The position numbers and the translations under genes were made by a program. From Melioribacteraceae bacterium (GTDB lineage Bacteria; Bacteroidota; Ignavibacteria; Ignavibacteriales; Melioribacteraceae), in assembly GCA_036743235.1 (NCBI GenBank), contig DAINPX010000001.1:1-33836 (forward strand): a DNA stretch of 33,836 nt. Direction: 5' to 3'. This document shows positions 510 through 15,789 of the stretch, in pieces. The notes beneath the pieces are model-generated. The model had not been told where the DNA came from. It made no database searches and was given only the letters and a program-made list of their open reading frames with translations. Position 1 is the first letter of the stretch. Every line of letters begins with the position of its first letter.

Positions 510-1520
510 TCATTCTCTCTCTAATATTTTTGACAATAATTTCACTTTTGTCAACAGTTCTTTAAATTGTTTTGGGGTAATTGACTGCATACCATCTGAA
601 AGTGCTTTTTCGGGATGATTATGCACTTCTATAATTAAACCGTCTGCACCTGCGGCAATACCGGCTAAAGCCATATTAGGTACTTTATTTGCAATTCCTA
701 TTCCATGCGATGGATCAACAAATATCGGCAAGTTGGACAGATGTTTTATTACCGGAACAGCATTTAAATCTAAAGTATTTCGCGTATATGTTTCAAATGT
801 TCTTATTCCCCTTTCACATAATATTACGTTATTATTCCCCTGCGATACAATATATTCGGCACTCATCAACAAATCTTCTATTGTTGCAGATAATCCTCTT
901 TTTAATAAAATGGGAATATTTGTTTTTCCAACTTTTTCCAACAACGAAAAGTTTTGCATATTTCGTGCCCCAATTTGTATAATATCGGCAACTTCAATAA
1001 CCATATCCAATGTTTCGGTATCTTTTGCTTCCGTTACTATTTTCATTCCCAATTCTTTTTTTACTTCAGATAAATATTTTAGCCCTATTTCTTTTAATCC
1101 TTGAAATGCATAGGGACTTGAACGCGGTTTATATGCCCCACCTCGTATAAATTTTATCCCCATTTCCTTTAACATTTCCGCTATTTCAAATATTTGTTCT
1201 CTGCTTTCTACCGAACATGGTCCTGCAATTATATTTATTTTTTTAGCCCCAATTAATTCACCATCAATATTTATTATTGTATCTTCATATTTCATCTCTC
1301 GGCTTACAAGTTTAAATGGTTTAGATACTCTGATAACATCATCCACATATTCCAATAATTTAAACTCATCTAAGCTAAGTTTACTACTTGGACCGGTTAC
1401 TCCTATTCCTAACTTAATTGCACCCGGTATTTCGTGAGGAGTGCAGCCGTTATAAGTTAACTTATTTTTTACTTTATCAATTGCATCTTTGGGAGCATCT
1501 AACGGCATTAATATTAACAT
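510..1520 (-). CDS. aroF: 3-deoxy-7-phosphoheptulonate (DAHP) synthase, type I-beta, with an N-terminal ferredoxin/ACT-like regulatory domain
   Basis: 336 aa. Core motifs are [39 protein letters not shown] and VDPSH. It is collinear with the Thermotoga maritima-type enzyme, including a ~65-aa N-terminal extension. Its ATG overlaps the trpF stop by 7 nt. Confidence 0.9.
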
Positions 1521-3928: not shown

Positions 3929-4491
3929 TTTAATACCCAGTTTTTAATTAAATTGTAGCCTTGTTTAGTAAGTATTGATTCAGGATGAAATTGTATTCCT
4001 TCAATATCGTAACTATTGTGTCTTACTCCCATTATTACATGGTCATCGGTTTCTGCCGTAATTACTAATTCTGAGGGTAAACTATCGGGGTCAATTACTA
4101 ACGAATGATATCTTGTAGCAACAAAATTTTGGGGAATATCTGTAAAAATTGTTTTACCATCATGTTTTATTAGCGATGTTTTACCATGTTTCAATTCTTT
4201 TGCTTTAACTACTTTTGCTCCATAAGCAATTCCAATTGCCTGATGACCCAAACAAACACCCAGTATTGGAATTATATTACCTAGTTCTTTTATTGTTGTT
4301 AGTGAAATGTTGCTATCTTCGGGTTTTCCCGGTCCTGGGGAAATTAATATCTTATTTGGATTAATTTCTTTAATATCTTTTATACTTATCTCATCGTTAC
4401 GTTTTATTACTAATTTATTACAAAATTGCCCCAGCAATTGTACTAAATTATATGTAAACGAATCGTAATTATCAATTACTAAAATTTTCAT
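3925..4491 (-). CDS. trpG: Anthranilate synthase component II (glutamine amidotransferase)
   Basis: 188 aa. It starts MKILVIDNYDSFTYNLVQ, has the catalytic GVCLGHQ, and has FHPES. It overlaps trpD by 4 nt (ATGA) and trpE by 20 nt. Confidence 0.92.
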   Translation of the reverse strand: MKILVIDNYDSFTYNLVQLLGQFCNKLVIKRNDEISIKDIKEINPNKILISPGPGKPEDSNISLTTIKELGNIIPILGVCLGHQAIGIAYGAKVVKAKELKHGKTSLIKHDGKTIFTDIPQNFVATRYHSLVIDPDSLPSELVITAETDDHVIMGVRHNSYDIEGIQFHPESILTKQGYNLIKNWVLK

Positions 4492-5947
4492 CTATAACCT
4501 CCGCAAACTTTAAAGCTTTTATCATAACAGCTGCTTTGTTGTTTATCTCTTTACTTTCCAATTCCGGTTTACTATCCGCTACTATTCCTGCTCCGCTTTG
4601 CCAATATATTGTATTATCTTTTGCAAATAAAGTACGTATTGCAATACACATATCCATATTTCCTTTGAAATCAAAATAGCCAACAGCTCCCGCATAAATA
4701 TTTCTCTCTGTTCTTTCAAATTGTTCAATTAACTGCATTGCTTTTATTTTGGGTGCTCCGGTTACCGTACCTGCAGGAAAACAAGATTTGAGTGCATCTA
4801 CAATATGTTTATCTTCAGTCAGTTCTCCTTCAACTTTTGAAACAATATGCATTACATGCGAATACCTTTGTATTTTCATTTGCTCTACCACTTCAATAGT
4901 ACCATATTTACATACTCGTCCCAAATCATTTCTCCCCAAATCAACCAACATAGTATGTTCTGCCAATTCTTTTTTATCATTTATTAAGTTTTCTTCAAGC
5001 ATTATATCTTCTTCTTTTGTCTTTCCTCTCCTTCTTGTTCCTGCAATTGGAAGTAATTGTACATTTCTATCATATATTTTTACTAAGTTTTCCGGAGATG
5101 TACCCATAATAGATAAGCCGTCAGGGTATTCAAAATAATACATATAAGGAGAAGGATTAATGATTCTTAAGGCTCTATAAACATTAAAAGTATCTCCTTT
5201 ATATTGTGCAAAGTACCTTTTTGAAAGTACTATTTGAAATATATCCCCCTCAATAATATGATATTTACTTTTCTCCACCATTTCAAAAAACTCCTTGTCT
5301 TCGGTATTGCATTCGGTTTCGGAAAGCAAACTAAAATCACTTTTATAACTGATCGTATTATTTAATAGAGAACTTAAATTACTTATATTATCAAGCGCAT
5401 CTTGGTAAGCATTATTTAAATTTGTTTCATCTTTTATTGTTACATTTGAAATCAAAATTACTTGATGCTTATAATGGTCGAATGCTATTAACGTTTTAAA
5501 TAGCCCTAAAATTGAATCGTAGTTTTCAATTCCTTTGTTTTTTGTTATTACTGTCGGCTCAATTTGCTGTATATTTTCATATCCTATAAACCCGCATAAA
5601 CCACCTGAAAATGCAGGTAATTCTTCTATTTTTGGCTGTTTGTATTTGTTTAATTCTTTAGTAATTACATCAAATATATTGCCCGATGTCTCTTCTTTTT
5701 TATTCTTGTTTTCTATAATAATATCATTCTTTTTATTCTTTATTATTAGTTCGGGGTCCTTACCAATAAAAGAAAAACGAGCCATATTTACATTTCCTTC
5801 AACCGATTCAAGTAAAAAAGCTGTTGATTGTTTATCTCTTACTTTTAAATAAGCCAAAACAGGAGTTAACATATCGGCGGTTATTATTTTATATACCGGT
5901 ATTAAATTGTATGTTTTTGCATACTCACAAAACTCATTATAATTCAT
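4472..5947 (-). CDS. trpE: Anthranilate synthase component I
   Basis: 491 aa. It has LLES near the N-terminus, then IAGTRRRG, GGAVGY and WQSGAGIVADS. An AGGAGA Shine-Dalgarno sequence lies 5 nt upstream of the ATG. Confidence 0.93.
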   Translation of the reverse strand: MNYNEFCEYAKTYNLIPVYKIITADMLTPVLAYLKVRDKQSTAFLLESVEGNVNMARFSFIGKDPELIIKNKKNDIIIENKNKKEETSGNIFDVITKELNKYKQPKIEELPAFSGGLCGFIGYENIQQIEPTVITKNKGIENYDSILGLFKTLIAFDHYKHQVILISNVTIKDETNLNNAYQDALDNISNLSSLLNNTISYKSDFSLLSETECNTEDKEFFEMVEKSKYHIIEGDIFQIVLSKRYFAQYKGDTFNVYRALRIINPSPYMYYFEYPDGLSIMGTSPENLVKIYDRNVQLLPIAGTRRRGKTKEEDIMLEENLINDKKELAEHTMLVDLGRNDLGRVCKYGTIEVVEQMKIQRYSHVMHIVSKVEGELTEDKHIVDALKSCFPAGTVTGAPKIKAMQLIEQFERTERNIYAGAVGYFDFKGNMDMCIAIRTLFAKDNTIYWQSGAGIVADSKPELESKEINNKAAVMIKALKFAEVIDENFSN

Positions 5948-5972
5948 TTTTTCTCCTATTCATGTTTAAACT

Positions 5973-6009
5973 AAAAAAGCCTTTCTCGGTGTAACGAGAA
6001 AGGCTTTTT
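5973..6009 (-). terminator. Intrinsic terminator forming the attenuator of the trp operon leader
   Basis: Minus strand reads AAAAAGCCTTTCTCG-TTACAC-CGAGAAAGGCTTTTTT. This is a perfect 10-bp GC-containing core extended by A:U pairs, followed by a U6 tract. It lies 21 nt after the trpL stop and 25 nt before the trpE ATG. Confidence 0.85.
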
Positions 6010-6030
6010 AAATATAATTATTTCTCAAAA

Positions 6031-6123
6031 TCACCAAGACTTATTGCAGTACGTACCCCACCACCACCAAATGTTTTGGCTATTTGAAGTTAAAAGGCAA
6101 TATGTCTTGGTTATTTTTTTCAT
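6031..6123 (-). CDS. trpL: trp operon leader peptide, 30 aa: MKKITKTYCLLTSNSQNIWWWWGTYCNKSW
   Basis: Manual translation. There are four consecutive TGG codons at 6069..6058 and a fifth TGG as the last sense codon. It sits directly between a promoter-like element and the terminator upstream of trpE. It is too short for the ORF track. Confidence 0.8.
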   Translation of the reverse strand: MKKITKTYCLLTSNSQNIWWWWGTYCNKSW

Positions 6124-6129
6124 GGGTGC

Positions 6130-6158
6130 AAAATAACAATCATTTTAATCTTTGTCAA
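6130..6158 (-). promoter_or_regulatory. Sigma-70-like promoter candidate for the trp leader
   Basis: Minus strand reads TTGACA (6158..6153), a 17-nt spacer, then TATTTT (6135..6130). The -10 element ends 6 nt before the trpL ATG. Confidence 0.4.
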
Positions 6159-6199
6159 TAGCTTGCATAAATTTTCATAAAAATACATTTATTTTCATT

Positions 6200-9100
6200 T
6201 TAAAACAGTATTTTTTCAATTCCTTCTTTTTTTACTGTTTTAATAAAGTTTTTCTTCCAGTCCTTCCCTAAAAATTGCTCGGCATTATATATTACCAACG
6301 ATTTTCCATTAACTTTTATATTAGAATCTAACTTATTTAACCCCATAACACAACTAGGGCAAGTAGTTAACACTTCAATTTGCTTTTCATAATTTTGGTT
6401 ATTAAAGTTTTCTACTTTTCTATCTCTAAGTATATTGGCTATATCCGGTCGGGATAAAGCAAGAGTTCCTGCCTCTCCGCAACAATTTGGTATTACGTCA
6501 GGCTTTATACCGTATATATTACTAAACGTTTTATCGCATCCTTTATGTTTTAATGGGCTATGACAAGGCTCGTGATAATAAAGTTTATTACCGTTACTTT
6601 TTTTTGTATAAAGTTGTTCTTGTGCTATGTATTCATTTACATCAATTAATTTGGCATTGTTAAAAATGTTTTCAAGTTCATATTTATCCAACATTTCGTA
6701 ACACGTTCCGCATGATACAATAACCGCTTCAATATTTAAGTAACCCGCAGTATATGCCATTTTATGAAAGATTACTCTGTTTTCATAACTTTTTAATTCT
6801 GCAGTTTCTATTTTACCGTTTGCCATAAACGGATAGCCGCAACATAAATACTCGGGAGGAATAACAACTTTTATTCCGGCATTATATAACAAAGTTATTA
6901 CCGCCAAACTTATTTCGGGTATCATTCTTTCAGAGCCACACCCCGGAAAATATACAACACTTTTACCCGTAGTTATTTTAGGGTTTTCAAAACAATAAAA
7001 CATATCTGTATTTTTTAAGTTAAATATTTCCCTAATCGTTTTTTCTCCGCTTTTAGGAAAAGGGCTTCGTAATAAATGATTAAGTTTGGGAATTATTAAA
7101 CCGGTATAATATGAAATAGGTTTATTTATATAAGATATAATACGTTGCGAATTATATCCTATCTTCAATAATCCAAGTCTAAATATTTTATTAATAAAGT
7201 ATTTTTTTCTTCCTAAATAAAATAATGCAATAGCAGTAAATATTTTAGCTTTTGTTTTTTTTCTAAACTCTAATTGTTTGCGTATTGTTATGGATATATC
7301 GCCAAAATCAATTTTTACAGGACAAGGAACTTGGCACTTATGACACACAGTGCAATTATCCGATATCTCTCTTAAATTCTTAAAATATTCAAACGATTTC
7401 ATGTCTAATGTTTGTGCAGCAAACAACACTGCTTCGGTTATTGAACCAACCGCCAATATTTTATTTCGAGGATTATAAAACATTTCTCCTTTGGGATAAT
7501 GTGTATTACAAACCGTTTTACATTTTCCGCACCTAACACACGAAGATATCTGTGAGGATAGTTTTTCCAAATCCGTATATTCCAATATTATTGCTTCTCG
7601 CTCCAACAAATTAAATGACGGCGTATATATTAAGTACAATGGAAAATTTTTATTTAATTTACCCGGGTTAAACAAATCATCAGGATCATTAATTTTCTTA
7701 TACGCTTGATACTCATCCAAAATTTCTTGGTCAATAAATTTTAATTTTGTTAGTCCTATTCCGTGCTCGCCTGATACAACACCACCCAACTCAACTGCCT
7801 TTTTCATTGATAAAGAAGCCGCTTCATCGGCTTCGTTCATCATCAAATAATCGTTTGAATGAACCGGAATATTTACATGAACATTACCGTCACCCGCGTG
7901 CATGTGTGTTGCAATTATTATTTTTCTTGTCCTTTCAGCTATTTCAATTTTTTCAATGTCTTTTATTATTTCATCGTATCCGTGAAATACTTTTTTATAA
8001 TAACTTGTAATTTCTTTATCATATTCTATTATTATTTTTCCGCTTTGTATATCTGCTAAAATATTATTGTTTGTATTTATTTCATGTAATAATTTATTAT
8101 ATATTTGTTTTTTATTTTCAAGTTCCACAATTATTCCCTCAACACGTTTGTGGGGAATATTATCTCTTTCTGATTTATTTAGTTCAATTAAATAATCATT
8201 TATTTTGTTAATTGTTGTTATTGAATTTTCATATTCTTTGCAATAATTCAGCTGTTCGATATAATCGGCAAAATGGGGTAAATTGCGTAACGGAATTACA
8301 ATATCTTCATTTAGCTTAAACGCATTTGTGTGTTTTGCAATTGCCCCCAAATGTTTTCTATCATTCCAAAATATTTTCCTTTCGCTATCGTTAATTGCCA
8401 GTGTTCCTTCTGCATTAAAACTATTTGCAACCGATATTATCTTATTACAACCCTGTTCCAGTTCATCAGTATAATTACTTTCCAAATCAATTAACAATAC
8501 CGCTTTTGGATTTTCGTTTCTATTAGACTTATTCCTATAATTTATAGCATCAACATATTTTTCGTCAAAATGTTCTAATGCGGTTAAATATACTTTATTA
8601 TCTTCAGAAAACAAATCGTTTATTTTTATTATTGCATTAGATGCTGCAACCATGTTACTGCCAAAGAACTCGATACAAATAGTTTTACAATATTTAAAAG
8701 GGGTATATAAAACAAATTTAGCAGATACAATTACACCATCCCCCCCTTCTTTTTGTAACCCGGGCAAACCTTTTAATGCCTTATTTGTAATATCTTTCCC
8801 CAGCCCTTTTTTTCTTATTTCTGTTCCGCTTAGTTCAATGGTTTTAGTTAATAAATCCCCTTTGCCGTTTAATTTATATACATCAAATATTACATTATCT
8901 TCCGGTAGTATTTTTCTGTATGGGTGGTTTCTCCTTTTTACTTTTAATATATCTCCGGTGCTATTAACAATTTTAAACGAATACAAATTATCTATTGCAG
9001 TACCCCACATTACACATTTTTTGCCGCCTGCATTTTCGGCAATATTTCCGCCTATTGTACTTGCCCATGCCGATGTAGGATCTGTGGCAAATATATACCC

Positions 9101-9871
9101 TAACTTTTCGCAATGTTCAATAATTGTATCGGTAACTACTCCGCTTTCAACTTCAATAACGGGAATAATATTTTCATTTTCCTCAACATGTTCTATTTCA
9201 TGTATTTTAGTAAACTTTTCGGTATTTATTACCATTGTTCTTCTGTTAACGGGCACGGCTCCGCCGGTTAACCCGGTACCGCCGCCTCTGGGAATTATAG
9301 AAAGATTTAATTTTTTAGCTACTTTAATTAATACCGGTATCTCCTCAATAGAATTGGGATATACAACAACAAACGGATACTCTACTCGCCAATCTGTTGC
9401 ATCGGTAGCATGGCTTACAAGATGAAAAGAGGAAAAATGTACATTTTTTAATGATACTAAACCGGTTAACATTAAAAGTAATTTTTGTCGTAATAATTTT
9501 ACAGTGTAAAACTCCTTAAAAAATCTTTCATTTAAATCTTCAACCTTTTTTATAACTTTTAAGGCAGTTTCATCCCCTTTGCTATTCCGTCTTACTGTTT
9601 CTATTCTTGAATTATGTATTATTTTTAACTTATTTCTTTTATGTTTATTTTTAAGAAATTCCTCATATAGGTAAGGGTTTCGTTCTATAATAAATATATC
9701 GCCAACATTTTCGTATAATAGTTTTGCACTTCTTCCTGTTATTCTTCTATTTCTTAATAGTTCAACTTGTTGCCAAGTCTCTTTATCAAAATATTTTAAT
9801 ATAATTTCTTTATCCGAAAACGAAGTATAATTATAAGTAATTTCTCTAAATCTAAATTCTTTACTTTGCAT
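6200..9871 (-). CDS. Large fused oxidoreductase: N-terminal DUF3683-like region, FAD-linked oxidase (GlcD-like), 2x[4Fe-4S] ferredoxin motifs and two CCG cysteine-rich domains (GlcF/HdrD-like)
   Basis: 1223 aa. PRGGGTGLTGGAVP marks the FAD_binding_4 domain and SGEHGIGLTK the FAD-oxidase C-terminal part. Cluster motifs are CVRCGKCKTVC..P and CTVCHKCQVPCP. CCG-type motifs are FPGCGSE...CCGYP and EPCHSP...CCGEAG. The overall architecture resembles E. coli YdiJ. An AGGAGA Shine-Dalgarno sequence is present, 25 nt after the asd stop. Confidence 0.8.
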   Translation of the reverse strand: MQSKEFRFREITYNYTSFSDKEIILKYFDKETWQQVELLRNRRITGRSAKLLYENVGDIFIIERNPYLYEEFLKNKHKRNKLKIIHNSRIETVRRNSKGDETALKVIKKVEDLNERFFKEFYTVKLLRQKLLLMLTGLVSLKNVHFSSFHLVSHATDATDWRVEYPFVVVYPNSIEEIPVLIKVAKKLNLSIIPRGGGTGLTGGAVPVNRRTMVINTEKFTKIHEIEHVEENENIIPVIEVESGVVTDTIIEHCEKLGYIFATDPTSAWASTIGGNIAENAGGKKCVMWGTAIDNLYSFKIVNSTGDILKVKRRNHPYRKILPEDNVIFDVYKLNGKGDLLTKTIELSGTEIRKKGLGKDITNKALKGLPGLQKEGGDGVIVSAKFVLYTPFKYCKTICIEFFGSNMVAASNAIIKINDLFSEDNKVYLTALEHFDEKYVDAINYRNKSNRNENPKAVLLIDLESNYTDELEQGCNKIISVANSFNAEGTLAINDSERKIFWNDRKHLGAIAKHTNAFKLNEDIVIPLRNLPHFADYIEQLNYCKEYENSITTINKINDYLIELNKSERDNIPHKRVEGIIVELENKKQIYNKLLHEINTNNNILADIQSGKIIIEYDKEITSYYKKVFHGYDEIIKDIEKIEIAERTRKIIIATHMHAGDGNVHVNIPVHSNDYLMMNEADEAASLSMKKAVELGGVVSGEHGIGLTKLKFIDQEILDEYQAYKKINDPDDLFNPGKLNKNFPLYLIYTPSFNLLEREAIILEYTDLEKLSSQISSCVRCGKCKTVCNTHYPKGEMFYNPRNKILAVGSITEAVLFAAQTLDMKSFEYFKNLREISDNCTVCHKCQVPCPVKIDFGDISITIRKQLEFRKKTKAKIFTAIALFYLGRKKYFINKIFRLGLLKIGYNSQRIISYINKPISYYTGLIIPKLNHLLRSPFPKSGEKTIREIFNLKNTDMFYCFENPKITTGKSVVYFPGCGSERMIPEISLAVITLLYNAGIKVVIPPEYLCCGYPFMANGKIETAELKSYENRVIFHKMAYTAGYLNIEAVIVSCGTCYEMLDKYELENIFNNAKLIDVNEYIAQEQLYTKKSNGNKLYYHEPCHSPLKHKGCDKTFSNIYGIKPDVIPNCCGEAGTLALSRPDIANILRDRKVENFNNQNYEKQIEVLTTCPSCVMGLNKLDSNIKVNGKSLVIYNAEQFLGKDWKKNFIKTVKKEGIEKILF

Positions 9872-9896: not shown

Positions 9897-10937
9897 TTAT
9901 ATCATTCTTTTTTTATACATTATTTCTGCAATTAATATGGTACCCCCGGCAGCTCCTCTTATTGTATTATGCGATAATACAACATATTTATAGTCAAATA
10001 AATTACACTCCCTTAATCTTCCTGTAATAGCAGCCATCCCTTTATCTATACTTTTATGTAAACGTGGTTGAGGATATTTTTCGTTGTCAAAATATTTTAT
10101 TGGTGTTACCGGTGCAAAAGGTAAATTCATTTCTTGCGGTAAAGATTTATATTCTTCCCAAGTTTTTAATATTTCCTCTTTTGTCGGTTTATTAATAAAA
10201 CTAAGCTGAACAATTTCCGTGTGGCCGTCTTTTACAAACACTCTATTTGTAGAAGCACTAATTTTAATATCTGCATTAATAATTTTATCCTCATCCATTC
10301 TCCCCAATATTTTAAGAGGTTCACTTTCCAATTTATCTTCCTCACCCCCAATAAAAGGAATAATATTATCTATCATATCTAAACTCGGCACTCCCGGATA
10401 TCCCGCACCGCTTATTGCCTGTAATGTAACAACATTTATTGACTTAACTCCAAATTTGTTATGTAATGGGGCAATTGATAATATTAACCCTATAGTTGAA
10501 CAATTAGGATTTGTAACAATAGCTCCGTTATTATATTTCTGATACTTTATTAAATTTAAGTGCTCATGGTTAACTTCCGGAATAATTAACGGAACAGCAT
10601 AACTCCATCTGTGGTTTTTTGCATTTGATATTATTATATGTCCTTTATTTGCCAAGTTTTCTTCAATCTCTCCCGCAACCGAAGCATCTAATGCCGAAAA
10701 CAATAATTTGGAATTAAATTTATCATCGCATAATTTAATAACTTTATCGGCAATTTTTTTAGGCATCTCAGCATCTTCAATCCAGTTAACAACGTCCTTA
10801 TATTTTTTCCCTGCAGATTTATCTGATGCCGCAATTTCTTCTACTTCAAAATACGGATGATTATTTAATAGTGTTATAAATTTTTGTCCTACACTTCCTG
10901 TAGCTCCTAAAACCCCTACTTTTATTTTTTTATCCAT
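9897..10937 (-). CDS. asd: Aspartate-semialdehyde dehydrogenase
   Basis: 346 aa. Motifs are VGVLGATGSVGQ, the active-site NPNCST, and QAISGAGY. Confidence 0.92.
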   Translation of the reverse strand: MDKKIKVGVLGATGSVGQKFITLLNNHPYFEVEEIAASDKSAGKKYKDVVNWIEDAEMPKKIADKVIKLCDDKFNSKLLFSALDASVAGEIEENLANKGHIIISNAKNHRWSYAVPLIIPEVNHEHLNLIKYQKYNNGAIVTNPNCSTIGLILSIAPLHNKFGVKSINVVTLQAISGAGYPGVPSLDMIDNIIPFIGGEEDKLESEPLKILGRMDEDKIINADIKISASTNRVFVKDGHTEIVQLSFINKPTKEEILKTWEEYKSLPQEMNLPFAPVTPIKYFDNEKYPQPRLHKSIDKGMAAITGRLRECNLFDYKYVVLSHNTIRGAAGGTILIAEIMYKKRMI

Positions 10938-10943
10938 ATTTAC

Positions 10944-12251
10944 CTACTCGTTAATACTTAATAAATATTCTTTTAAATCTTCATAATTGCTTGATAAAAC
11001 ACTACTCTTTTTTTCTCTATCTATACACTTTGTCAATCTATCGGGTTTTTCTATTTTTTTATTTAATGCGTTTTCTATTATCTCGTAAAATTTTGCCGGA
11101 TGCGCAGTTTCTAAAATAATAAATTGCGTATTCTTACTGAATTTATCCTGCATTTTTTTTGTTGCTGCATAGCCCACTGCACCATGAGGGTCAATTATAT
11201 ATCCATATTTTGTATAAACTTCTTTTATACCGTTTAATATTTCATCATCGTTAATTTTATTGGATACAACATCATCCATAATTTTTTTGTGTTCATTATT
11301 ATATAAATCAATTATACGGGCTAAATTACTCGGGTTACCAACATCCATTGCGTTTGCATAAGTTTTTACGGATTTTTCCGATTTAAATACACTTGTTTTT
11401 AAATATTTATTAAATACATCATTAATATTTAATGCAGCAATAAATTTATTTACAGGCAATCCCATTTTTTTTGTAATAAGCCCAGCCGTTAAATTCCCTA
11501 AATTCCCGCTTGGAACGGTAAAAACAATATTTTCGGCACTTTCGCTACAATTAAAATAAGCGTCATAATAATAGATCATTTGAGGCAATAACCTTGCTAT
11601 ATTTATTGAATTAGCAGATGAAAGTCTAATATTGTTTTTTAAAAATTTATCATTAAAAGCCGTTTTAACAAGTCTTTGACAATCGTCAAATGTTCCTTCT
11701 ATTTCCAATGCTTTAACGTTACCACCTAAAGTAGTTATTTGTTTTTCTTGCAAAAAACTAATTTTATTTTTAGGATACAAAACAACAACTTCAATTCCAT
11801 TTTTATTATAAAATCCGTTTGCAACCGCACTACCCGTATCTCCCGAAGTTGCAACAAGTATTATTAACTTTCTTTTTTCATTCTTATTAAAATACTCGGT
11901 AACTGCAGCCGTAAATTGTGCCCCAAAATCTTTAAATGCCAAGGTGGGTCCGTTAAACAATTCCAACACCATTGTATTATTATCAAGTAATACCAACGGG
12001 GAATTAAATGTAAAAATATTATCAACAATGTCTATAAAATCATTTTCAGGTATCTCATCTTCAATGTATTTTTTTAATATCGGAAATGCTGTATTTTTAA
12101 ACGAATGATTTTTATTTTTACTAAAGTATTCATTTTCCATTTTGGGAATTATTAACGGCATATATAAACCACCGTCTGCGGCTAATCCTTCTAATACTGC
12201 GGTTTTAAAAGATACAATATTGTTTTTGTTGTTTGTACTATAATATTTCAT
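10944..12251 (-). CDS. thrC: Threonine synthase
   Basis: 435 aa. It has the PLP-lysine motif PTLAFKDFG, then ATSGDTGSA and TAHPAKF. Confidence 0.92.
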   Translation of the reverse strand: MKYYSTNNKNNIVSFKTAVLEGLAADGGLYMPLIIPKMENEYFSKNKNHSFKNTAFPILKKYIEDEIPENDFIDIVDNIFTFNSPLVLLDNNTMVLELFNGPTLAFKDFGAQFTAAVTEYFNKNEKRKLIILVATSGDTGSAVANGFYNKNGIEVVVLYPKNKISFLQEKQITTLGGNVKALEIEGTFDDCQRLVKTAFNDKFLKNNIRLSSANSINIARLLPQMIYYYDAYFNCSESAENIVFTVPSGNLGNLTAGLITKKMGLPVNKFIAALNINDVFNKYLKTSVFKSEKSVKTYANAMDVGNPSNLARIIDLYNNEHKKIMDDVVSNKINDDEILNGIKEVYTKYGYIIDPHGAVGYAATKKMQDKFSKNTQFIILETAHPAKFYEIIENALNKKIEKPDRLTKCIDREKKSSVLSSNYEDLKEYLLSINE

Positions 12252-12252
12252 T

Positions 12253-13191
12253 TTATTTTCTATTTATTAATAATGCCCCTTGCTTATTAACTTTTGTTAC
12301 AAAAATAGAATAAGCATATTTTTGTGTCTTCATAAACTCTTTTATGTTTGTGCTTATTTGTCCGGCAATTTCGCTAGAACCTGCAAAGGCAAAAATGGAG
12401 GGACCACTTCCTGAAATATTACATGCCAAAGCACCCGATTTATAAGCGATATTTTTTATTTCTGCGTAATTAGGAATTAAAAACGCCCTGGCAGGTTCAA
12501 CAATATAATCTTCAACAGCTCTTCCTATTAAATTCAAATCATTCATAAACAAACCTGCAGTTAATGCTGCACTATTTCCCCAATGCTTTATTGCATCTTT
12601 TAAAGGTACGCATTCAGGTAATACTCTTCTGGCTTCTTTTGTGCTTATTTCTATATCGGTATATATTATTACGCAGTATAAATTTTCTGGAGTGGGTAAT
12701 TTTATTATATCAAGCGGAGAATAACTCCTTATTAAAATAAATCCCCCGAATAATGCAGGAGCCACATTATCGGCATGTAATCCTCCGCTTGCTATTTTTT
12801 CGCCTTGTAATGCATATTCCAACAATTTATTTTCGGAAAGATTGAGATCGAACAAATAATTACCCGCTACCGCAGAAGCAACAGCACAAGCCGCGCTACT
12901 GCCTAAACCGCTGCTAATTGGCATATATTTGTTAATTTCCAATTCCACACCACAAGAAATATTATTTTCCAACATCATTGTAATTAACGGAGCTCCAACG
13001 GTATTAAGCCTAATATCTTTTGGCAATTTACCTTTATCGCCGGATATTGATTTAATTATCAAATCATTCCCCTCGGTTTTACGTAACGTAATTTCATCTC
13101 CTAATTTTTCAATTGCAAAACCAAACGTGTCAAATCCGCAACCAACATTACTTACCGAAGCCGGTACAAATACTTTAACTTCATTATACAT
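12253..13191 (-). CDS. thrB: Homoserine kinase
   Basis: 312 aa. It has the GHMP kinase motif PISSGLGSSAA and an N-terminal PASVSNVGCGFD. Confidence 0.92.
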   Translation of the reverse strand: MYNEVKVFVPASVSNVGCGFDTFGFAIEKLGDEITLRKTEGNDLIIKSISGDKGKLPKDIRLNTVGAPLITMMLENNISCGVELEINKYMPISSGLGSSAACAVASAVAGNYLFDLNLSENKLLEYALQGEKIASGGLHADNVAPALFGGFILIRSYSPLDIIKLPTPENLYCVIIYTDIEISTKEARRVLPECVPLKDAIKHWGNSAALTAGLFMNDLNLIGRAVEDYIVEPARAFLIPNYAEIKNIAYKSGALACNISGSGPSIFAFAGSSEIAGQISTNIKEFMKTQKYAYSIFVTKVNKQGALLINRK

Positions 13192-13200
13192 AATATTTTT

Positions 13201-15648
13201 TTATATTTTATCAATTATTTTAATTAAATCGGCAAATACCGCCGCAGCCGTAACCTCTAATCCCGCACCGGGACCTTGAATTATTAATGGATTATTATTA
13301 TAATATTTACTTTTAATAACTACCATATTATCGGTTAAACATAAATTATAAAACGGACTATTAGGTCCAATAGACTTAATTCCTATTTTTGCTTTTCCGT
13401 TTTTATATTCCGCAATATATTTTAATCTTTCATTTTTGCTTTCGGACTGTAACCGCTTATTTTCATATTCTTTATCTACTTCAGATAAGTTGTTATAAAA
13501 ATCATCCAAAGTGCAATCAAAAAGTAATTCATTATCAATTATCTTTTCTTGTTCAATCGCATTAGGTTCTATGACAATTCCCAATTCGCGTATTAGAATA
13601 ATTATTTTTCGTAAAACATCAAATCCCGATAAATCGTCTCGTGGGTCCGGTTCGCTAAATCCTTTTTTGCTTGCTTTTTTTATTGCTTTAGATAACGGTA
13701 CATCCTTAGAAATAATATTAAAAATATACCCCAGCGTACCCGATAATACTGCCTCAATTTCTTCTATTTCATCTCCTGCGTTTTTCAAATCGTTTAGCGA
13801 AGTTAATATCGGTAATCCGGCTCCAACGGTTGCTTCGTAATTAAAAAAAGTTTTGTTTTTTTGTAATTCCAAAAGTTTTTGATAATAATTGTAATCTATT
13901 GAATTTGCCGTTTTATTGGCAGTAACAATACTCACTTTGTTTTTAAGCAAATTCAAGTATTCTTTTGCAAGTTCCTTTCCTGATGTACAATCAACAAAAA
14001 TTTTATTTTTTAATTTAGAGTTAATAATTTGTTCAACAAATTTATTATCGGTATAATTTTTTGCTATAAAATTAAAATTACTTCCTAAGTCCTTATCGTT
14101 TATCCCCTCAATACTCCAAATCATTTTTTTACTGTTTGAAACCCCTATTAAATTAAGTCTTATATTTTTTTGCTTTAACAAATATTCTTTTCTATTTATA
14201 AGTATTTCTATAAATTTATTACCTATCTTTCCAATTCCTGCCACAAACAAATATACATCTTTTACACCGTTAAAAAAGAATTTTTTGTGTATTAAATTTA
14301 GTGCATTCTTTAAATCCGTTTTATTTATGACCATTGAAATGTTTAACTCGCTACTTCCTTGGGCAATAGCAACAATATTAATTTTTTCGTCTCCTAAGGC
14401 TAAAAATAAATTTCCGGCAATTCCGGCAGTGCTTCTCATATTTTCGCCAACTACCGCTACAATTGATAATTCACTCTCTATCTTAATATCGTTAACTAAA
14501 CCATCTTTTAATTCGTAATAGAATTCATTTCTAATTACTTCTTGTGCTTTTTCGGCAAATTTGGGTAATACTGCAAAACAAATAGAATGTTCAGAGGATG
14601 CTTGAGTAATTAATATTATATTAATTCCTTCGTTTGCCAATACTCCAAACAACCTTTTGGCAATACCTGCTACACCTACCATTCCCGGACCTTGAACACT
14701 AATTAAAGCTACTTCGTCTATTGAAGAAATTCCTTTTATTGCATATTTGTCTTTTGTAGAACTACTTTGAACTAATGTACCAATAAAATTAGGATTAAAA
14801 GTGTTTTTTATTCTAATCGGAATATTTTTAACCATTGCCGGATACATAGTTGGCGGATGAATTACTTTTGCACCGAAGTGGGATAGTTCCATTGCTTCTT
14901 CGTAAGATAAAAATGAAACAGGAAAAGCATCTTTTACTTTTCGCGGATCTGCCGTTAATACACCGTCAACATCCGTCCATATTTCAATTTCTTCAACATT
15001 TAGTGCTGCTCCTATTATTGATGCCGTATAATCCGATCCTCCCCGCCCTAATGTTGTTGTTTCGTTTAAATTATTTGAAGCAATAAACCCTGTAATTATT
15101 TCAACTTTATTACTTTTTTCAAAATAATTTTTAATTAGTTTTTCCGAAATTTCTAAATTAACTTTTGCCGAACCAAATAGTGAATCGGTTTTAATAATTT
15201 CTCTTGCATCGCAATAATTGGCATTAATTCCTAATGTAATAAAATATTCCGATATTGCATAATTAGAAATTCTTTCTCCATAACTCAACAAATTATCCAT
15301 AGTTTTAGGAGAAATTTCTTTTATAAGATATATACCATGCAGCAAATCTTTTATTTCATTTAAAAATATTTCTACCTGATATTGTATTTTTTTTGTATTC
15401 TTTTTAATTAGCTTTGTTACAATTTCTTTGGTTTTTTCTACTAAAATATTAAAATTGGTTTTATAGCTAATATCTCCTTTAGATGCCGTTAATCCTATTT
15501 CTATTAATAAATCCGTTACGCCTTGAAAAGCCGAAAAAACAACGGCTATTTTTTCGTTATTTTTTAATTTGTTTTTTATTATGCTTCCTACATCTGCAAT
15601 TCTATCGGCACTACCTACAGAAGAACCTCCAAATTTTAAAACTTTCAT
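13201..15648 (-). CDS. thrA: Bifunctional aspartokinase / homoserine dehydrogenase (paralogue II, thr-linked)
   Basis: 815 aa. It has KFGGSSV and TTTLGRGGSDYTA...WTDVDGVLTADPR (kinase domain), a central ACT region, and a C-terminal HSDH domain (GIGKIGN, LSGTLGYIF). GAGGAG Shine-Dalgarno sequence. It is followed directly by thrB and thrC. Confidence 0.92.
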   Translation of the reverse strand: MKVLKFGGSSVGSADRIADVGSIIKNKLKNNEKIAVVFSAFQGVTDLLIEIGLTASKGDISYKTNFNILVEKTKEIVTKLIKKNTKKIQYQVEIFLNEIKDLLHGIYLIKEISPKTMDNLLSYGERISNYAISEYFITLGINANYCDAREIIKTDSLFGSAKVNLEISEKLIKNYFEKSNKVEIITGFIASNNLNETTTLGRGGSDYTASIIGAALNVEEIEIWTDVDGVLTADPRKVKDAFPVSFLSYEEAMELSHFGAKVIHPPTMYPAMVKNIPIRIKNTFNPNFIGTLVQSSSTKDKYAIKGISSIDEVALISVQGPGMVGVAGIAKRLFGVLANEGINIILITQASSEHSICFAVLPKFAEKAQEVIRNEFYYELKDGLVNDIKIESELSIVAVVGENMRSTAGIAGNLFLALGDEKINIVAIAQGSSELNISMVINKTDLKNALNLIHKKFFFNGVKDVYLFVAGIGKIGNKFIEILINRKEYLLKQKNIRLNLIGVSNSKKMIWSIEGINDKDLGSNFNFIAKNYTDNKFVEQIINSKLKNKIFVDCTSGKELAKEYLNLLKNKVSIVTANKTANSIDYNYYQKLLELQKNKTFFNYEATVGAGLPILTSLNDLKNAGDEIEEIEAVLSGTLGYIFNIISKDVPLSKAIKKASKKGFSEPDPRDDLSGFDVLRKIIILIRELGIVIEPNAIEQEKIIDNELLFDCTLDDFYNNLSEVDKEYENKRLQSESKNERLKYIAEYKNGKAKIGIKSIGPNSPFYNLCLTDNMVVIKSKYYNNNPLIIQGPGAGLEVTAAAVFADLIKIIDKI

Positions 15649-15673
15649 AACTCCTCATCTACTTGTTTAAAAT

Positions 15674-15707
15674 AAAAAAACCGACCTAGTTAGACTAAAG
15701 TCGGTTT
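15674..15707 (-). terminator. Intrinsic terminator upstream of thrA (attenuator 3:4 helix)
   Basis: Minus strand reads AAACCGAC-(14-nt loop)-GTCGGTTT, followed by TTTTATTTT. It ends 25 nt before the thrA ATG. Confidence 0.6.
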
Positions 15708-15729
15708 AAAAGAATAGTATTCACCAACT

Positions 15730-15789
15730 TCAGTCTGTTAGACTGCCGGTAGTTATAACGGATGTTAGTGAAATACACGAGGATAACAT
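15730..15789 (-). CDS. Candidate thr leader peptide, 19 aa: MLSSCISLTSVITTGSLTD
   Basis: Manual translation. The Ile-Thr-Thr codons (ATA ACT ACC) end 4 nt upstream of region 1. The TGA stop lies inside region 2. There is no obvious Shine-Dalgarno sequence, and trpL lacks one too. Confidence 0.4.
   Translation of the reverse strand: MLSSCISLTSVITTGSLTD

What the first reader, a model, noticed from the sequence alone, without database searches (positions are those of the whole stretch)
5973..6123. trp leader peptide with four consecutive Trp codons and a strong attenuator terminator
An unannotated 30-codon ORF lies immediately upstream of trpE: MKKITKTYCLLTSNSQNIWWWWGTYCNKSW. It has a TGG x4 run at 6069..6058 and a fifth TGG as the last codon.

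This window is AT-rich and Trp is the rarest amino acid, so five Trp in 30 residues is very unlikely by chance. The ORF is followed 21 nt later by a textbook terminator with a 10-bp GC core, A:U extensions and a U6 tract. The trpE Shine-Dalgarno sequence and ATG come next.

This is the signature of ribosome-mediated trp attenuation. E. coli trpL has two adjacent Trp codons; this leader has four.

I could not resolve the antiterminator by eye. Two candidates are:
- TGAGAAA (6032..6026) pairing with TTTCTCG of the terminator 5' arm
- an 8-nt perfect complement ACCAAGAC (6111..6104) / GTCTTGGT (6040..6033) that brackets the ORF
Basis: partly seen in the sequence, partly recalled or inferred. Interest (0 to 1): 0.65.

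Follow-up and report, generated by a model that had tools for sequence, protein, structure and literature searches.

The report
Tryptophan operon leader-peptide attenuator, Ignavibacteria type
A 30-codon mini-gene with four consecutive tryptophan codons plus three mutually exclusive RNA helices in front of trpE forms a textbook-style switch that most likely turns the tryptophan operon on when tryptophan runs short; it is conserved across Ignavibacteria, is absent from Rfam, and has an unusual layout.

Summary
The ORF MKKITKTYCLLTSNSQNIWWWWGTYCNKSW (6123..6031, minus strand), the TGG x4 run (6069..6058), the terminator (6009..5973) and trpE (ATG 5947) are all as described. Only the TGAGAAA coordinate is off by 5 nt.

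It is far beyond chance. TGG x4 occurs once in the window and in 0 of 100 shuffles. 77 of 80 relatives' trpE loci (Ignavibacteria and neighbouring lineages) carry a Trp-run mini-ORF, and the other three have split Trp codons. Only 0.6% of control windows have one, and none of those has a terminator.

The interpretation, ribosome-mediated trp attenuation, is supported. I resolved the antiterminator. The ORF's last codons plus stop (CUUGGUG) pair with the terminator loop and 3' arm top (CACCGAG). UGAGAAA pairs with the 5' arm top. It is a covarying 19-bp "protector" helix (P1) that sequesters the antiterminator's 5' strand.

Unlike E. coli trpL and Rfam's Bacteroid-trp (24.8 bits against a cut-off of 49), the Trp codons lie in the protector's loop, and the leader mRNA looks leaderless.

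Verdict: new, uncurated member of a well-known kind, with a variant layout. No expression data exist.

The parts
6130..6158 (-). Promoter-like site TTGACA (6158..6153), 17 nt, TATTTT (6135..6130). It ends 6 nt before the leader AUG.
   Evidence: 10 of 12 matches, TG before the second hexamer. A TTGAC...TAnnTT motif is found upstream of the leader in 72 of 78 relatives.
6031..6123 (-). Leader ORF, 30 codons plus TGA: MKKITKTYCLLTSNSQNIWWWWGTYCNKSW. No Shine-Dalgarno sequence.
   Evidence: SD-like motif before the leader AUG in 0 of 78.
6058..6069 (-). Regulatory run of four UGG (Trp) codons, codons 19-22.
   Evidence: In relatives the run is 2-4 Trp and starts at codon 16-21.
6097..6117 (-). 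Region 1: 5' strand of protector helix P1 (AAAAUAACCAAGACAUAUUGC, codons 3-9).
   Evidence: in the MFE fold. Covariation. Duplex -21.2 against -6.1 kcal/mol with region 2 shuffled.
6027..6047 (-). Region 2: 3' strand of P1 (GCAAUAAGUCUUGGUGAUUUU; last 5 codons, stop, 4 nt). It contains antiterminator strand a.
6032..6038 (-). Antiterminator outer strand a (CUUGGUG). It belongs to the conserved element CYCRGUGA.
   Evidence: 90-91% of cells paired, A-U/G-C/G-U switches. In the MFE fold of 76 of 78 sequences.
6021..6027 (-). Antiterminator inner strand b (UGAGAAA).
   Evidence: b:b' with at least 4 bp in the MFE fold of 65 of 78 sequences.
5995..6001 (-). b' (UUUCUCG): top of the terminator 5' arm. 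It pairs with b in the ON state.
5985..5991 (-). a' (CACCGAG): terminator loop plus top of the 3' arm. It pairs with a in the ON state.
5973..6009 (-). Intrinsic terminator: 15-bp stem (10-bp core plus 5 A-U pairs), 6-nt loop, U6 tract.
   Evidence: -21.2 kcal/mol. 92.6-98% of cells paired in relatives, with compensatory changes.
6067..6079 (-). Possible small hairpin CCAAA/UUUGG that includes the first Trp codon. Weakly supported.
   Evidence: 75% paired; only the outermost pair covaries.
5953..5957 (-). Shine-Dalgarno AGGAG of trpE.
4472..5947 (-). trpE, the first structural gene. It is followed by trpG, trpD, trpC, trpF, a DAHP synthase gene and a trpB fragment.

Best explanation
This is a ribosome-mediated transcription attenuator of the trpEGDCF-DAHPS-trpB operon.

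How it works:
1. Transcription starts at or within a few bases of the leader AUG (inferred). A ribosome translates the 30-codon leader while the polymerase transcribes on.
2. With charged tRNA-Trp plentiful, the ribosome runs to the UGA. There its footprint covers CUUGGUG and UGAGAAA, the 5' strands a and b of the antiterminator. The 15-bp terminator hairpin plus U6 then forms and transcription stops before trpE.
3. With no ribosome at all, region 1 (codons 3-9) pairs with region 2 (ORF end). This 19-bp helix P1 also hides strand a and gives termination.
4. When tRNA-Trp is scarce, the ribosome stalls on the four UGG codons. These lie 10 nt upstream of region 2, inside the 49-nt P1 loop. Strands a and b stay free. 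b captures the top of the terminator's 5' arm as it emerges, and a then captures the loop and 3' arm top. This antiterminator (-12.9 kcal/mol) pre-empts the terminator, and the polymerase reads into trpE.

Shown by sequence and comparison: the ORF, the Trp run, the three mutually exclusive helices, their conservation and covariation, and the geometry.

Inferred: the transcription start, the order of folding, that a ribosome stalled in the P1 loop prevents P1 from closing, and the Trp response itself.
For: - Sequence and operon.
- Chance excluded: 0 of 100 shuffles; 77 of 80 against 15 of 2,634 control windows, none of those with a terminator.
- Conservation: leader ORFs with 2-4 consecutive Trp, starting at codon 16-21, 23-33 aa long, across Ignavibacteria and neighbouring lineages labelled Calditrichota, at 56-81% TrpE identity.
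- Terminator: 92.6-98% of cells paired, with compensatory changes.
- Antiterminator a:a': 90-91% paired. Pair 113:177 is AU47/GC20/GU9; pair 111:179 is CG35/UA18/UG11.
- Alignment-free folding: the RNA from a to a' folds into a:a' in 76 of 78 sequences and into b:b' in 65 of 78. Median energy is -13.5 kcal/mol, against -6.6 when the a-b zone is shuffled.
- P1 plus terminator: all five covariation measures exceed all 500 shuffles, and 19 of 29 pairs change on both sides.
- The element CYCRGUGA is conserved even where the stop codon lies 8-15 nt upstream of it. That is expected if its role is RNA pairing within reach of a terminating ribosome.
- Energies mirror classical attenuators: terminator -21.2, antiterminator -12.9.
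- The leader travels with trpE, not with the upstream gene: only 3 of 76 loci share that gene, and 44 of 71 have a divergent upstream ORF.
Against: - There are no expression data. Metatranscriptome contigs do not cover the leader or trpE. Termination, read-through and the Trp response are all unmeasured.
- For the antiterminator alone, the two stricter covariation measures are not above shuffles (110 and 230 of 500 shuffles reach them). Its support is pairing conservation plus 2-3 covarying positions.
- Region 1 lies 27 nt upstream of the Trp run, outside the footprint of a stalled ribosome. Folding with only the footprint masked still yields P1 plus the terminator. The model therefore needs an extra assumption: steric exclusion of P1 by the ribosome in its loop, or a second queued ribosome.
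- At equilibrium the terminator is more stable than the antiterminator, so the switch must be kinetic. This is also true in E. coli.
Confidence: 0.88

Rival explanations
1. Variant mechanism. Because the protector strand (region 1) is not covered by the ribosome stalled at the Trp run, antitermination needs a second ribosome queued behind the first. A disome would cover codons 4-13, which is region 1. A ribosome-size steric block of the 49-nt P1 loop could do the same job. On this reading the attenuator reads ribosome queuing, not just a single stall.
For: - Region 1 (6117..6097) ends 27 nt before the first UGG.
- The AUG is 54 nt upstream of the run, so it is free for re-initiation while a ribosome stalls.
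- A trailing ribosome about 30 nt behind would cover region 1 (geometry).
- With only a single footprint masked, P1 remains in the MFE fold.
- The distal layout is dominant in 41 of 78 leaders, with a conserved gap of median 25 nt.
- The candidate thr leader in the same window shows the same layout.
Against: - Purely geometric inference. Nothing was measured.
- Steric exclusion by one ribosome may suffice. About 30 of the 49 loop nucleotides are inside the ribosome, and its front edge reaches region 2 when the third or fourth UGG is in the A site.
- 20 of 78 relatives use the classical proximal layout with otherwise the same parts. The family therefore works without a disome in those lineages.
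Confidence: 0.2
2. The leader peptide or the terminated leader RNA also acts in trans, as peTrpL and rnTrpL do in Sinorhizobium, in addition to cis attenuation.
For: There is precedent in PMC7298713 and PMC6614838 (listed). The N-terminal motif MK-I-xGTYY and the C-terminal NNMTQ are conserved.
Against: The conserved codons coincide with the two strands of P1 and covary at the RNA level, which explains the peptide conservation. No peptide family matches in Pfam or NCBIfam. Where the stop codon has moved upstream, the RNA element is kept but the C-terminal peptide is not.
Confidence: 0.07
3. The hairpin is simply the terminator of the upstream DUF3683/FAD-oxidase gene (6200..9871), and the Trp-rich ORF is a chance ORF.
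For: That gene is on the same strand and has no obvious terminator of its own between 6200 and 6160.
Against: A promoter-like site lies between that gene and the ORF. The ORF and hairpin accompany trpE in 77-80 of 80 loci, while the upstream gene is shared by only 3 of 76. Chance is excluded.
Confidence: 0.01
4. Attenuation is mediated by a protein or a tRNA (a TRAP-like protein, or a T-box) rather than by the translating ribosome.
For: Such systems control trp operons in Firmicutes (established knowledge).
Against: No T-box or other riboswitch match in Rfam, even at E up to 10. The leader has only four scattered (G/U)AG triplets, not the 9-11 closely spaced repeats that TRAP needs (sequence). 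The conserved in-frame Trp run at a fixed codon position, and the placement of strand a at the stop codon, are explained only by translation.
Confidence: 0.03

Closest known systems
E. coli and enterobacterial trpL attenuator (Rfam RF00513 Trp_leader)
   Same: - Short ORF with tandem UGG codons directly upstream of trpE.
- Three mutually exclusive helices: protector 1:2, antiterminator, and terminator 3:4 with a U tract.
- A terminating ribosome masks the antiterminator's 5' strand.
- Similar energy ordering of the helices (the E. coli values are from my own knowledge).
   Different: - No sequence or structure match to RF00513, even at E up to 10.
- 30 codons with 4 Trp at codons 19-22, against 14 codons with 2 Trp at codons 10-11.
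- The Trp codons lie in the loop of the protector helix, not in its 5' strand.
- The antiterminator is bipartite and pairs with the tops of both terminator arms and the loop, instead of with the 5' arm only.
- No SD, and probably a leaderless start.
Bacteroid-trp, 'Bacteroidete tryptophan peptide leader RNA' (Rfam RF01692; Weinberg et al. 2010, PMC2864571)
   Same: - Same superphylum (FCB group) and the same kind of element upstream of trp genes.
- The model consensus encodes MKKIIVNTYWW... It shares the MKKI...TY (ACAUAU) start and the AAUAUG-type partner strand with these leaders.
- An A-rich tract then leads into a terminator.
   Different: - The window scores 24.8 bits against a gathering score of 49 (E about 1), and its AUG is misaligned.
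- None of 14 relatives passes the gathering score, and none of 7 proximal-type relatives matches at E up to 5.
- In RF01692 the UGG codons follow TY directly and lie in the hairpin's 5' strand. Here about 10 codons separate them.
- Homology is possible but unproven.
Actinobacterial trp leaders (Corynebacterium, Streptomyces; Seliverstov et al. 2005, PMC1262725)
   Same: Predicted or tested leader peptides with Trp runs and terminator/antiterminator alternatives upstream of trpE.
   Different: Unrelated sequences in a GC-rich context. No detectable similarity. Not compared in detail here.

Membership tests
Ribosome-mediated Trp leader-peptide transcription attenuators (mechanistic class) | Short ORF with two or more adjacent Trp codons immediately upstream of Trp biosynthesis genes | tested here: met
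   Conserved in 77 of 80 relatives against 0.6% of control windows.
Ribosome-mediated Trp leader-peptide transcription attenuators (mechanistic class) | Intrinsic terminator (G+C-rich hairpin plus U tract) between the leader ORF and the first structural gene | tested here: met
   (-21.2 kcal/mol, U6). 92.6-98% of cells paired in relatives.
Ribosome-mediated Trp leader-peptide transcription attenuators (mechanistic class) | Antiterminator helix mutually exclusive with the terminator | tested here: met
   a:a' plus b:b' is the MFE fold of 6040..5985. a:a' appears in 76 of 78 MFE folds and is 90-91% paired with covariation. The stricter covariation measures are not significant for it alone.
Ribosome-mediated Trp leader-peptide transcription attenuators (mechanistic class) | The antiterminator's 5' strand is masked by a ribosome at the stop codon and free when the ribosome is on the Trp codons | tested here: met
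   Geometry. Strand a overlaps the stop codon and b starts 4 nt after it. The Trp run ends 19 nt before a. Where the stop has moved, it lies only 8-15 nt upstream of a.
Ribosome-mediated Trp leader-peptide transcription attenuators (mechanistic class) | Protector (1:2) helix whose 5' strand contains or abuts the regulatory codons, so that the stalled ribosome masks it | tested here: not met
   In the window, region 1 is codons 3-9, 27 nt upstream of the run. The feature is met in 20 of 78 relatives, the proximal type. This is a layout difference, not a failure of the class.
Ribosome-mediated Trp leader-peptide transcription attenuators (mechanistic class) | Read-through increases when charged tRNA-Trp is limiting and depends on translation of the UGG codons | not testable with these tools
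   Public RNA runs do not cover the leader.
Rfam RF01692 Bacteroid-trp | Covariance-model score at or above the gathering score (49 bits) | tested here: not met
   24.8 bits, E 0.65-1.3. No hit at the gathering score in 14 relatives. No hit at E up to 5 in 7 relatives.
Rfam RF01692 Bacteroid-trp | UGG codons within the 5' strand of the single conserved hairpin | tested here: not met
   Model consensus and structure line, against the P1-loop position here.
Rfam RF00513 Trp_leader (Enterobacteria) | Covariance-model match | tested here: not met
   Not among the matches up to E = 10.
T-box leader / TRAP-binding leader | T-box covariance-model match, or 9-11 closely spaced (G/U)AG repeats | tested here: not met
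   No Rfam match. Only four scattered GAG/UAG triplets in 6123..5948.
Curated leader-peptide protein families (Pfam, NCBIfam) | HMM match of the peptide | tested here: not met
   0 families at E up to 10 for three representative peptides.

The most novel reading that the evidence does not exclude
In this lineage the attenuator layout has been rebuilt. The protector strand has moved from beside the Trp codons to the 5' end of a probably leaderless ORF, and the regulatory codons now sit in the loop of a 19-bp helix. A single stalled ribosome's footprint does not mask the protector. The switch would then depend on the physical bulk of a ribosome inside an RNA loop, or on a second queued ribosome. 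It would sense ribosome occupancy or collision rather than a simple footprint. The candidate thr leader in the same window shows the same layout, which suggests a lineage-wide design rule.
Probability: 0.25. Interest if true: 0.6.

Novelty: new member of a known kind. Interest (0 to 1): 0.4.

Why it matters
- It extends classical leader-peptide attenuation, with comparative support, to Ignavibacteria and neighbouring lineages, where nothing of the kind is curated. There is no match in Rfam, Pfam or NCBIfam, and no paper turned up in the library searched.
- It gives a ready-made seed of 78 sequences with three helices for a new RNA family. That would improve annotation of trp operons in these mostly uncultured bacteria.
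- The family contains two layouts of the same parts, with the protector strand either next to the Trp codons or 27 nt upstream of them. This is a natural experiment on how much of the attenuation logic depends on the ribosome footprint and how much on ribosome bulk or queuing.
- The SD-less start next to the promoter bears on how transcription and translation are synchronised without a ribosome-binding site.

Tried and rejected
- Rfam at gathering thresholds on the window and on 14 relatives: nothing at the leader. Permissive Rfam scans gave only sub-threshold hits driven by the terminator, plus the weak Bacteroid-trp hit.
- Public RNA data: four metatranscriptome runs hold fragments of the upstream gene only, and nothing over 5400..6220. 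There is no information on the transcription start or on termination.
- Literature: no paper combines Ignavibacteria with attenuation and leader peptide. Vitreschak et al. 2004 and the Merino/Jensen/Yanofsky review are not held. From memory, the former predicts attenuators in 'Bacteroidetes/Chlorobi'. I could not verify this, so prior prediction in the wider group cannot be excluded.
- Pfam and NCBIfam on the peptides: no match.
- The small hairpin CCAAA/UUUGG at the first Trp codon: it pairs in 75% of cells, but nearly all the variation is one-sided. I kept it only as 'possible'.
It touches neither terminator arm and it competes with the antiterminator.
- The W-run pairing with the terminator arms: checked by eye, no convincing complementarity.
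- The upstream-gene terminator reading: rejected.
- I did not build a covariance model. The MAFFT-based and alignment-free tests were sufficient, and they are less biased toward the proposed structure.

Full report
OBSERVATION

Reading the minus strand confirms the finding.
- The ORF runs from ATG 6123 to the stop TGA at 6033..6031. It encodes MKKITKTYCLLTSNSQNIWWWWGTYCNKSW.
- The four UGG codons are at 6069..6058. A fifth UGG is the last codon.
- After 21 nt comes a hairpin: AAAAAGCCUUUCUCG, loop UUACAC, CGAGAAAGGCUUUUU (6009..5974), with a U6 tract (5978..5973). Folded alone it gives -21.2 kcal/mol.
- AGGAG (5957..5953) and the trpE ATG (5947) follow.
- Pfam identifies the downstream genes as trpE, trpG, trpD, trpC, trpF and a DAHP synthase. 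A trpB fragment runs off the window start.
- The only error in the finding is that TGAGAAA lies at 6027..6021, not 6032..6026.

IS IT MORE THAN CHANCE?

- TGG x4 occurs once in 33.8 kb and in none of 100 dinucleotide shuffles.
- The leader folds 5.5 sd better than shuffles.
- The decisive test is comparative. A scan of one genome per species with the TrpE protein returned 80 loci. Nearly all are labelled Ignavibacteria, Melioribacteraceae or Ignavibacteriaceae; two are labelled Calditrichota and several have only broad labels. TrpE identity is 56-81%. The window is therefore an Ignavibacteria-type genome, and its DNA is nearly complete (97% of sampled words) in an activated-sludge metagenome run.
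- In 77 of 80 loci a short ORF with two to four consecutive Trp codons lies upstream of trpE.
- The three exceptions have W-A-W-stop, W...W, and W-A-W-F-W leaders with the same downstream RNA element.
- In 2,634 control windows of the same loci, only 15 (0.6%) have any WW mini-ORF, and none of those is followed by a terminator.
- The geometry is conserved. The leader is 23-33 aa. The Trp run starts at codon 16-21 (median 19). The U tract ends 14-30 nt before trpE in most loci.

RNA ANATOMY

On a plain MAFFT alignment of 78 leaders (A1) and on the closest 50 (A2), I counted pairs for structures anchored on the window row. Three helices stand out.

1. Terminator.
   - 92.6% (A1) and 98% (A2) of cells are paired, with compensatory changes.

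2. Antiterminator, which is bipartite.
   - Outer helix a:a' is CUUGGUG (6038..6032: the last two codons plus UG of the stop) with CACCGAG (5991..5985: terminator loop plus 3' arm top).
   - Inner helix b:b' is UGAGAAA (6027..6021) with UUUCUCG (6001..5995: 5' arm top).
   - a:a' is 90-91% paired. Its central pairs switch among A-U, G-C and G-U (AU47/GC20/GU9, and CG35/UA18/UG11). The G-C state appears to have arisen in several clades (the window group, L007, L009/L010, L049; judged by eye).
   - b:b' scores lower on MAFFT (58-67%) because of one-base register shifts.
   - In alignment-free folding of each sequence from a to a', a:a' appears in 76 of 78 and b:b' in 65 of 78. Median energy is -13.5 kcal/mol, against -6.6 when the a-b zone is shuffled.
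   - In the window this fold is the MFE, at -12.9 kcal/mol.
   - Caveat: for the antiterminator alone, the two stricter covariation measures do not exceed shuffles.

3. P1.
   - This is a 19-bp helix between region 1 (6117..6097, codons 3-9) and region 2 (6047..6027: the last five codons, the stop, and 4 nt).
   - With the terminator, it beats all 500 shuffles on all five measures, and 19 of 29 pairs change on both sides.
   - It explains the conserved peptide motifs (MK-I-xGTYY and NNMTQ) as RNA constraints.
   - Region 2 contains strand a, so P1 and the antiterminator are mutually exclusive. The antiterminator and the terminator are also mutually exclusive.

The element CYCRGUGA (strand a) is kept even in lineages whose leader stop codon lies 8-15 nt upstream of it (Ignavibacterium L031/32/35/39/43, L050, L059...). 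That fits an RNA role within reach of a terminating ribosome.

The window's fifth Trp codon is part of this element. Relatives have CGG or CAG there, so it is probably not regulatory.

MECHANISM

The logic is that of classical attenuation.
- A ribosome at the stop codon covers a and b, so the terminator forms.
- With no ribosome, P1 hides a, so the terminator forms.
- A ribosome stalled on the UGG run leaves a and b free. The run ends 10 nt before region 2 and 19 nt before a. b captures the top of the 5' arm as it emerges, a captures the loop and 3' arm top, and the polymerase reads through.

The structures, their exclusivity and the spacings are shown. The order of folding and the Trp response are inferred.

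One step needs an extra assumption. Region 1 lies 27 nt upstream of the run, outside a stalled ribosome's footprint. Folding with only that footprint masked still gives P1 plus the terminator. Two explanations are possible.
- The ribosome sitting in the 49-nt loop sterically prevents closure. About 30 nt are inside the ribosome, and its front edge reaches region 2 when the third or fourth UGG is in the A site.
- A second ribosome queued about 30 nt behind covers region 1. The AUG is 54 nt upstream of the run and so is free for re-initiation.

I cannot distinguish these two.

TWO LAYOUTS IN ONE FAMILY

Duplex energies show two layouts.
- In 41 of 78 leaders the distal region 1 is dominant. In the window it is -21.2 kcal/mol, against -6.1 with region 2 shuffled and -6.5 for any partner near the Trp run.
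- In 20 of 78 leaders, mostly the more distant lineages, the best partner of region 2 abuts or overlaps the Trp run. This is the classical layout, in which the stalled ribosome masks region 1.

TRANSLATION START

- A TTGACA-17-TATTTT promoter-like site ends 6 nt before the AUG.
- A TTGAC...TAnnTT motif is found in 72 of 78 relatives. It ends 6 nt before the AUG in the window's clade and 12-14 nt before it in most others.
- No leader has an SD-like sequence (0 of 78), against 25 of 78 for trpE.
- The leader mRNA is thus predicted to be leaderless or nearly so. This is an inference with no transcription start data.

RIVALS

- The hairpin as the upstream gene's terminator. Only 3 of 76 loci share that gene, and in 44 of 71 the nearest upstream ORF is divergent. 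Rejected.
- T-box or TRAP. There is no Rfam match and no (G/U)AG repeat array. Rejected.
- A trans-acting peptide or small RNA, as in Sinorhizobium (PMC7298713, PMC6614838). This is not excluded, but the peptide conservation is explained by RNA pairing, and no peptide family matches.

COMPARISON WITH WHAT IS KNOWN

- The kind is textbook: E. coli trpL, and modelling of codon number and sensitivity in PMC1183508.
- The nearest curated family is Rfam RF01692 Bacteroid-trp (Weinberg et al. 2010, PMC2864571), from the sister phylum.
- The window scores 24.8 bits against a cut-off of 49, with its AUG misaligned. None of 21 relatives tested reaches it.
- In that model the UGG codons follow ...TY directly and lie in the hairpin's 5' strand.
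- Its consensus MKKIIVNTYWW shares MKKI...TY (ACAUAU) with these leaders. Distant common ancestry with an insertion of about 10 codons is conceivable but untested.
- RF00513 does not match at all.
- I found no paper on attenuation in Ignavibacteria. Two likely relevant papers are not held.

VERDICT

This is a real, strongly conserved trp leader-peptide attenuator.

It is a new, uncurated member of a well-known kind. The variant layout (regulatory codons in the protector loop, a bipartite antiterminator, a probable leaderless start) raises a modest but testable mechanistic question.

Interest is 0.4.

Noticed in passing
window 15672..15789, minus strand: A second candidate leader-peptide attenuator.
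- A 19-codon ORF MLSSCISLTSVITTGSLTD (4 Thr, 2 Ile) is followed by a hairpin AAACCGACUUUAGUCUAACUAGGUCGGUUU plus U7.
- It lies directly upstream of an aspartokinase-homoserine dehydrogenase, homoserine kinase, threonine synthase and asd cluster (13201..15648, 12253..13191, 10944..12251, 9897..10937).
- The MFE fold (z = -3.8) pairs ORF codons 5-9 with GUUGGUGAAUAC just after the stop. This puts the I-T-T codons in the loop, the same 'distal protector' layout as the trp leader.
- AGUUGG could pair with CCGACU of the terminator 5' arm.
- There is no Rfam hit at the gathering score.
   Followed up: partly
window 6124..6158, minus strand; upstream of the leaders in the loci: The promoter-like motif ends 6 nt before the leader AUG in the window's clade and 12-14 nt before it in most relatives. 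None of 78 leader ORFs has an SD-like sequence, whereas trpE has AGGAG. This predicts a leaderless or near-leaderless leader mRNA.
   Followed up: partly
L009, L010, L051, L052, L055, L056, L059, L060, L062-L064, L066, L067, L070, L071, L074-L077, L079 (leader regions): In these 20 relatives the partner of region 2 abuts or overlaps the Trp run, which is the classical layout, instead of lying at codons 3-9. One family therefore holds two attenuator layouts.
   Followed up: yes
window 510..1520, minus strand, and 1..~500: A DAHP synthase gene (type with an N-terminal ferredoxin-like domain) sits inside the trp operon between trpF and a trpB fragment. The first common step of aromatic amino-acid synthesis would then be under Trp-specific attenuation.
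   Followed up: partly
window 13201..15648 and 15908..18361, minus strand: Two tandem paralogues of bifunctional aspartokinase-homoserine dehydrogenase (815 and 817 aa, same domain order). Only the downstream one is preceded by the candidate thr leader.
   Followed up: no
L015, L017, L021, L024, L026, L027, L034, L041, L051, L066, L067, L074, L077 (between the U tract and trpE): In these loci 75-205 nt are inserted between the leader terminator and trpE, against 14-50 nt elsewhere. Some inserts contain repeats, for example 'attacaagattaca' in L017/L024 and an inverted repeat in L015. Their nature is unknown.
   Followed up: no
L033 leader (about 200 nt upstream of its trpE): The leader reads ...NWAW-stop, with TGA where the close relative L038 has further TGG codons. 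The downstream RNA element is intact. This may be a degenerating or altered attenuator.
   Followed up: no
Rfam RF01692 consensus against these leaders: The Bacteroid-trp consensus peptide start MKKIIVNTYWW shares MKKI...TY (ACAUAU) with the Ignavibacteria leaders, and its AAUAUG-type partner strand resembles theirs. This hints at distant common ancestry with about 10 codons inserted before the Trp run.
   Followed up: partly
L079:3730-3801: A tRNA gene lies immediately upstream of the trp leader in Stygiobacter electus. This is one example of the variable upstream context.
   Followed up: no
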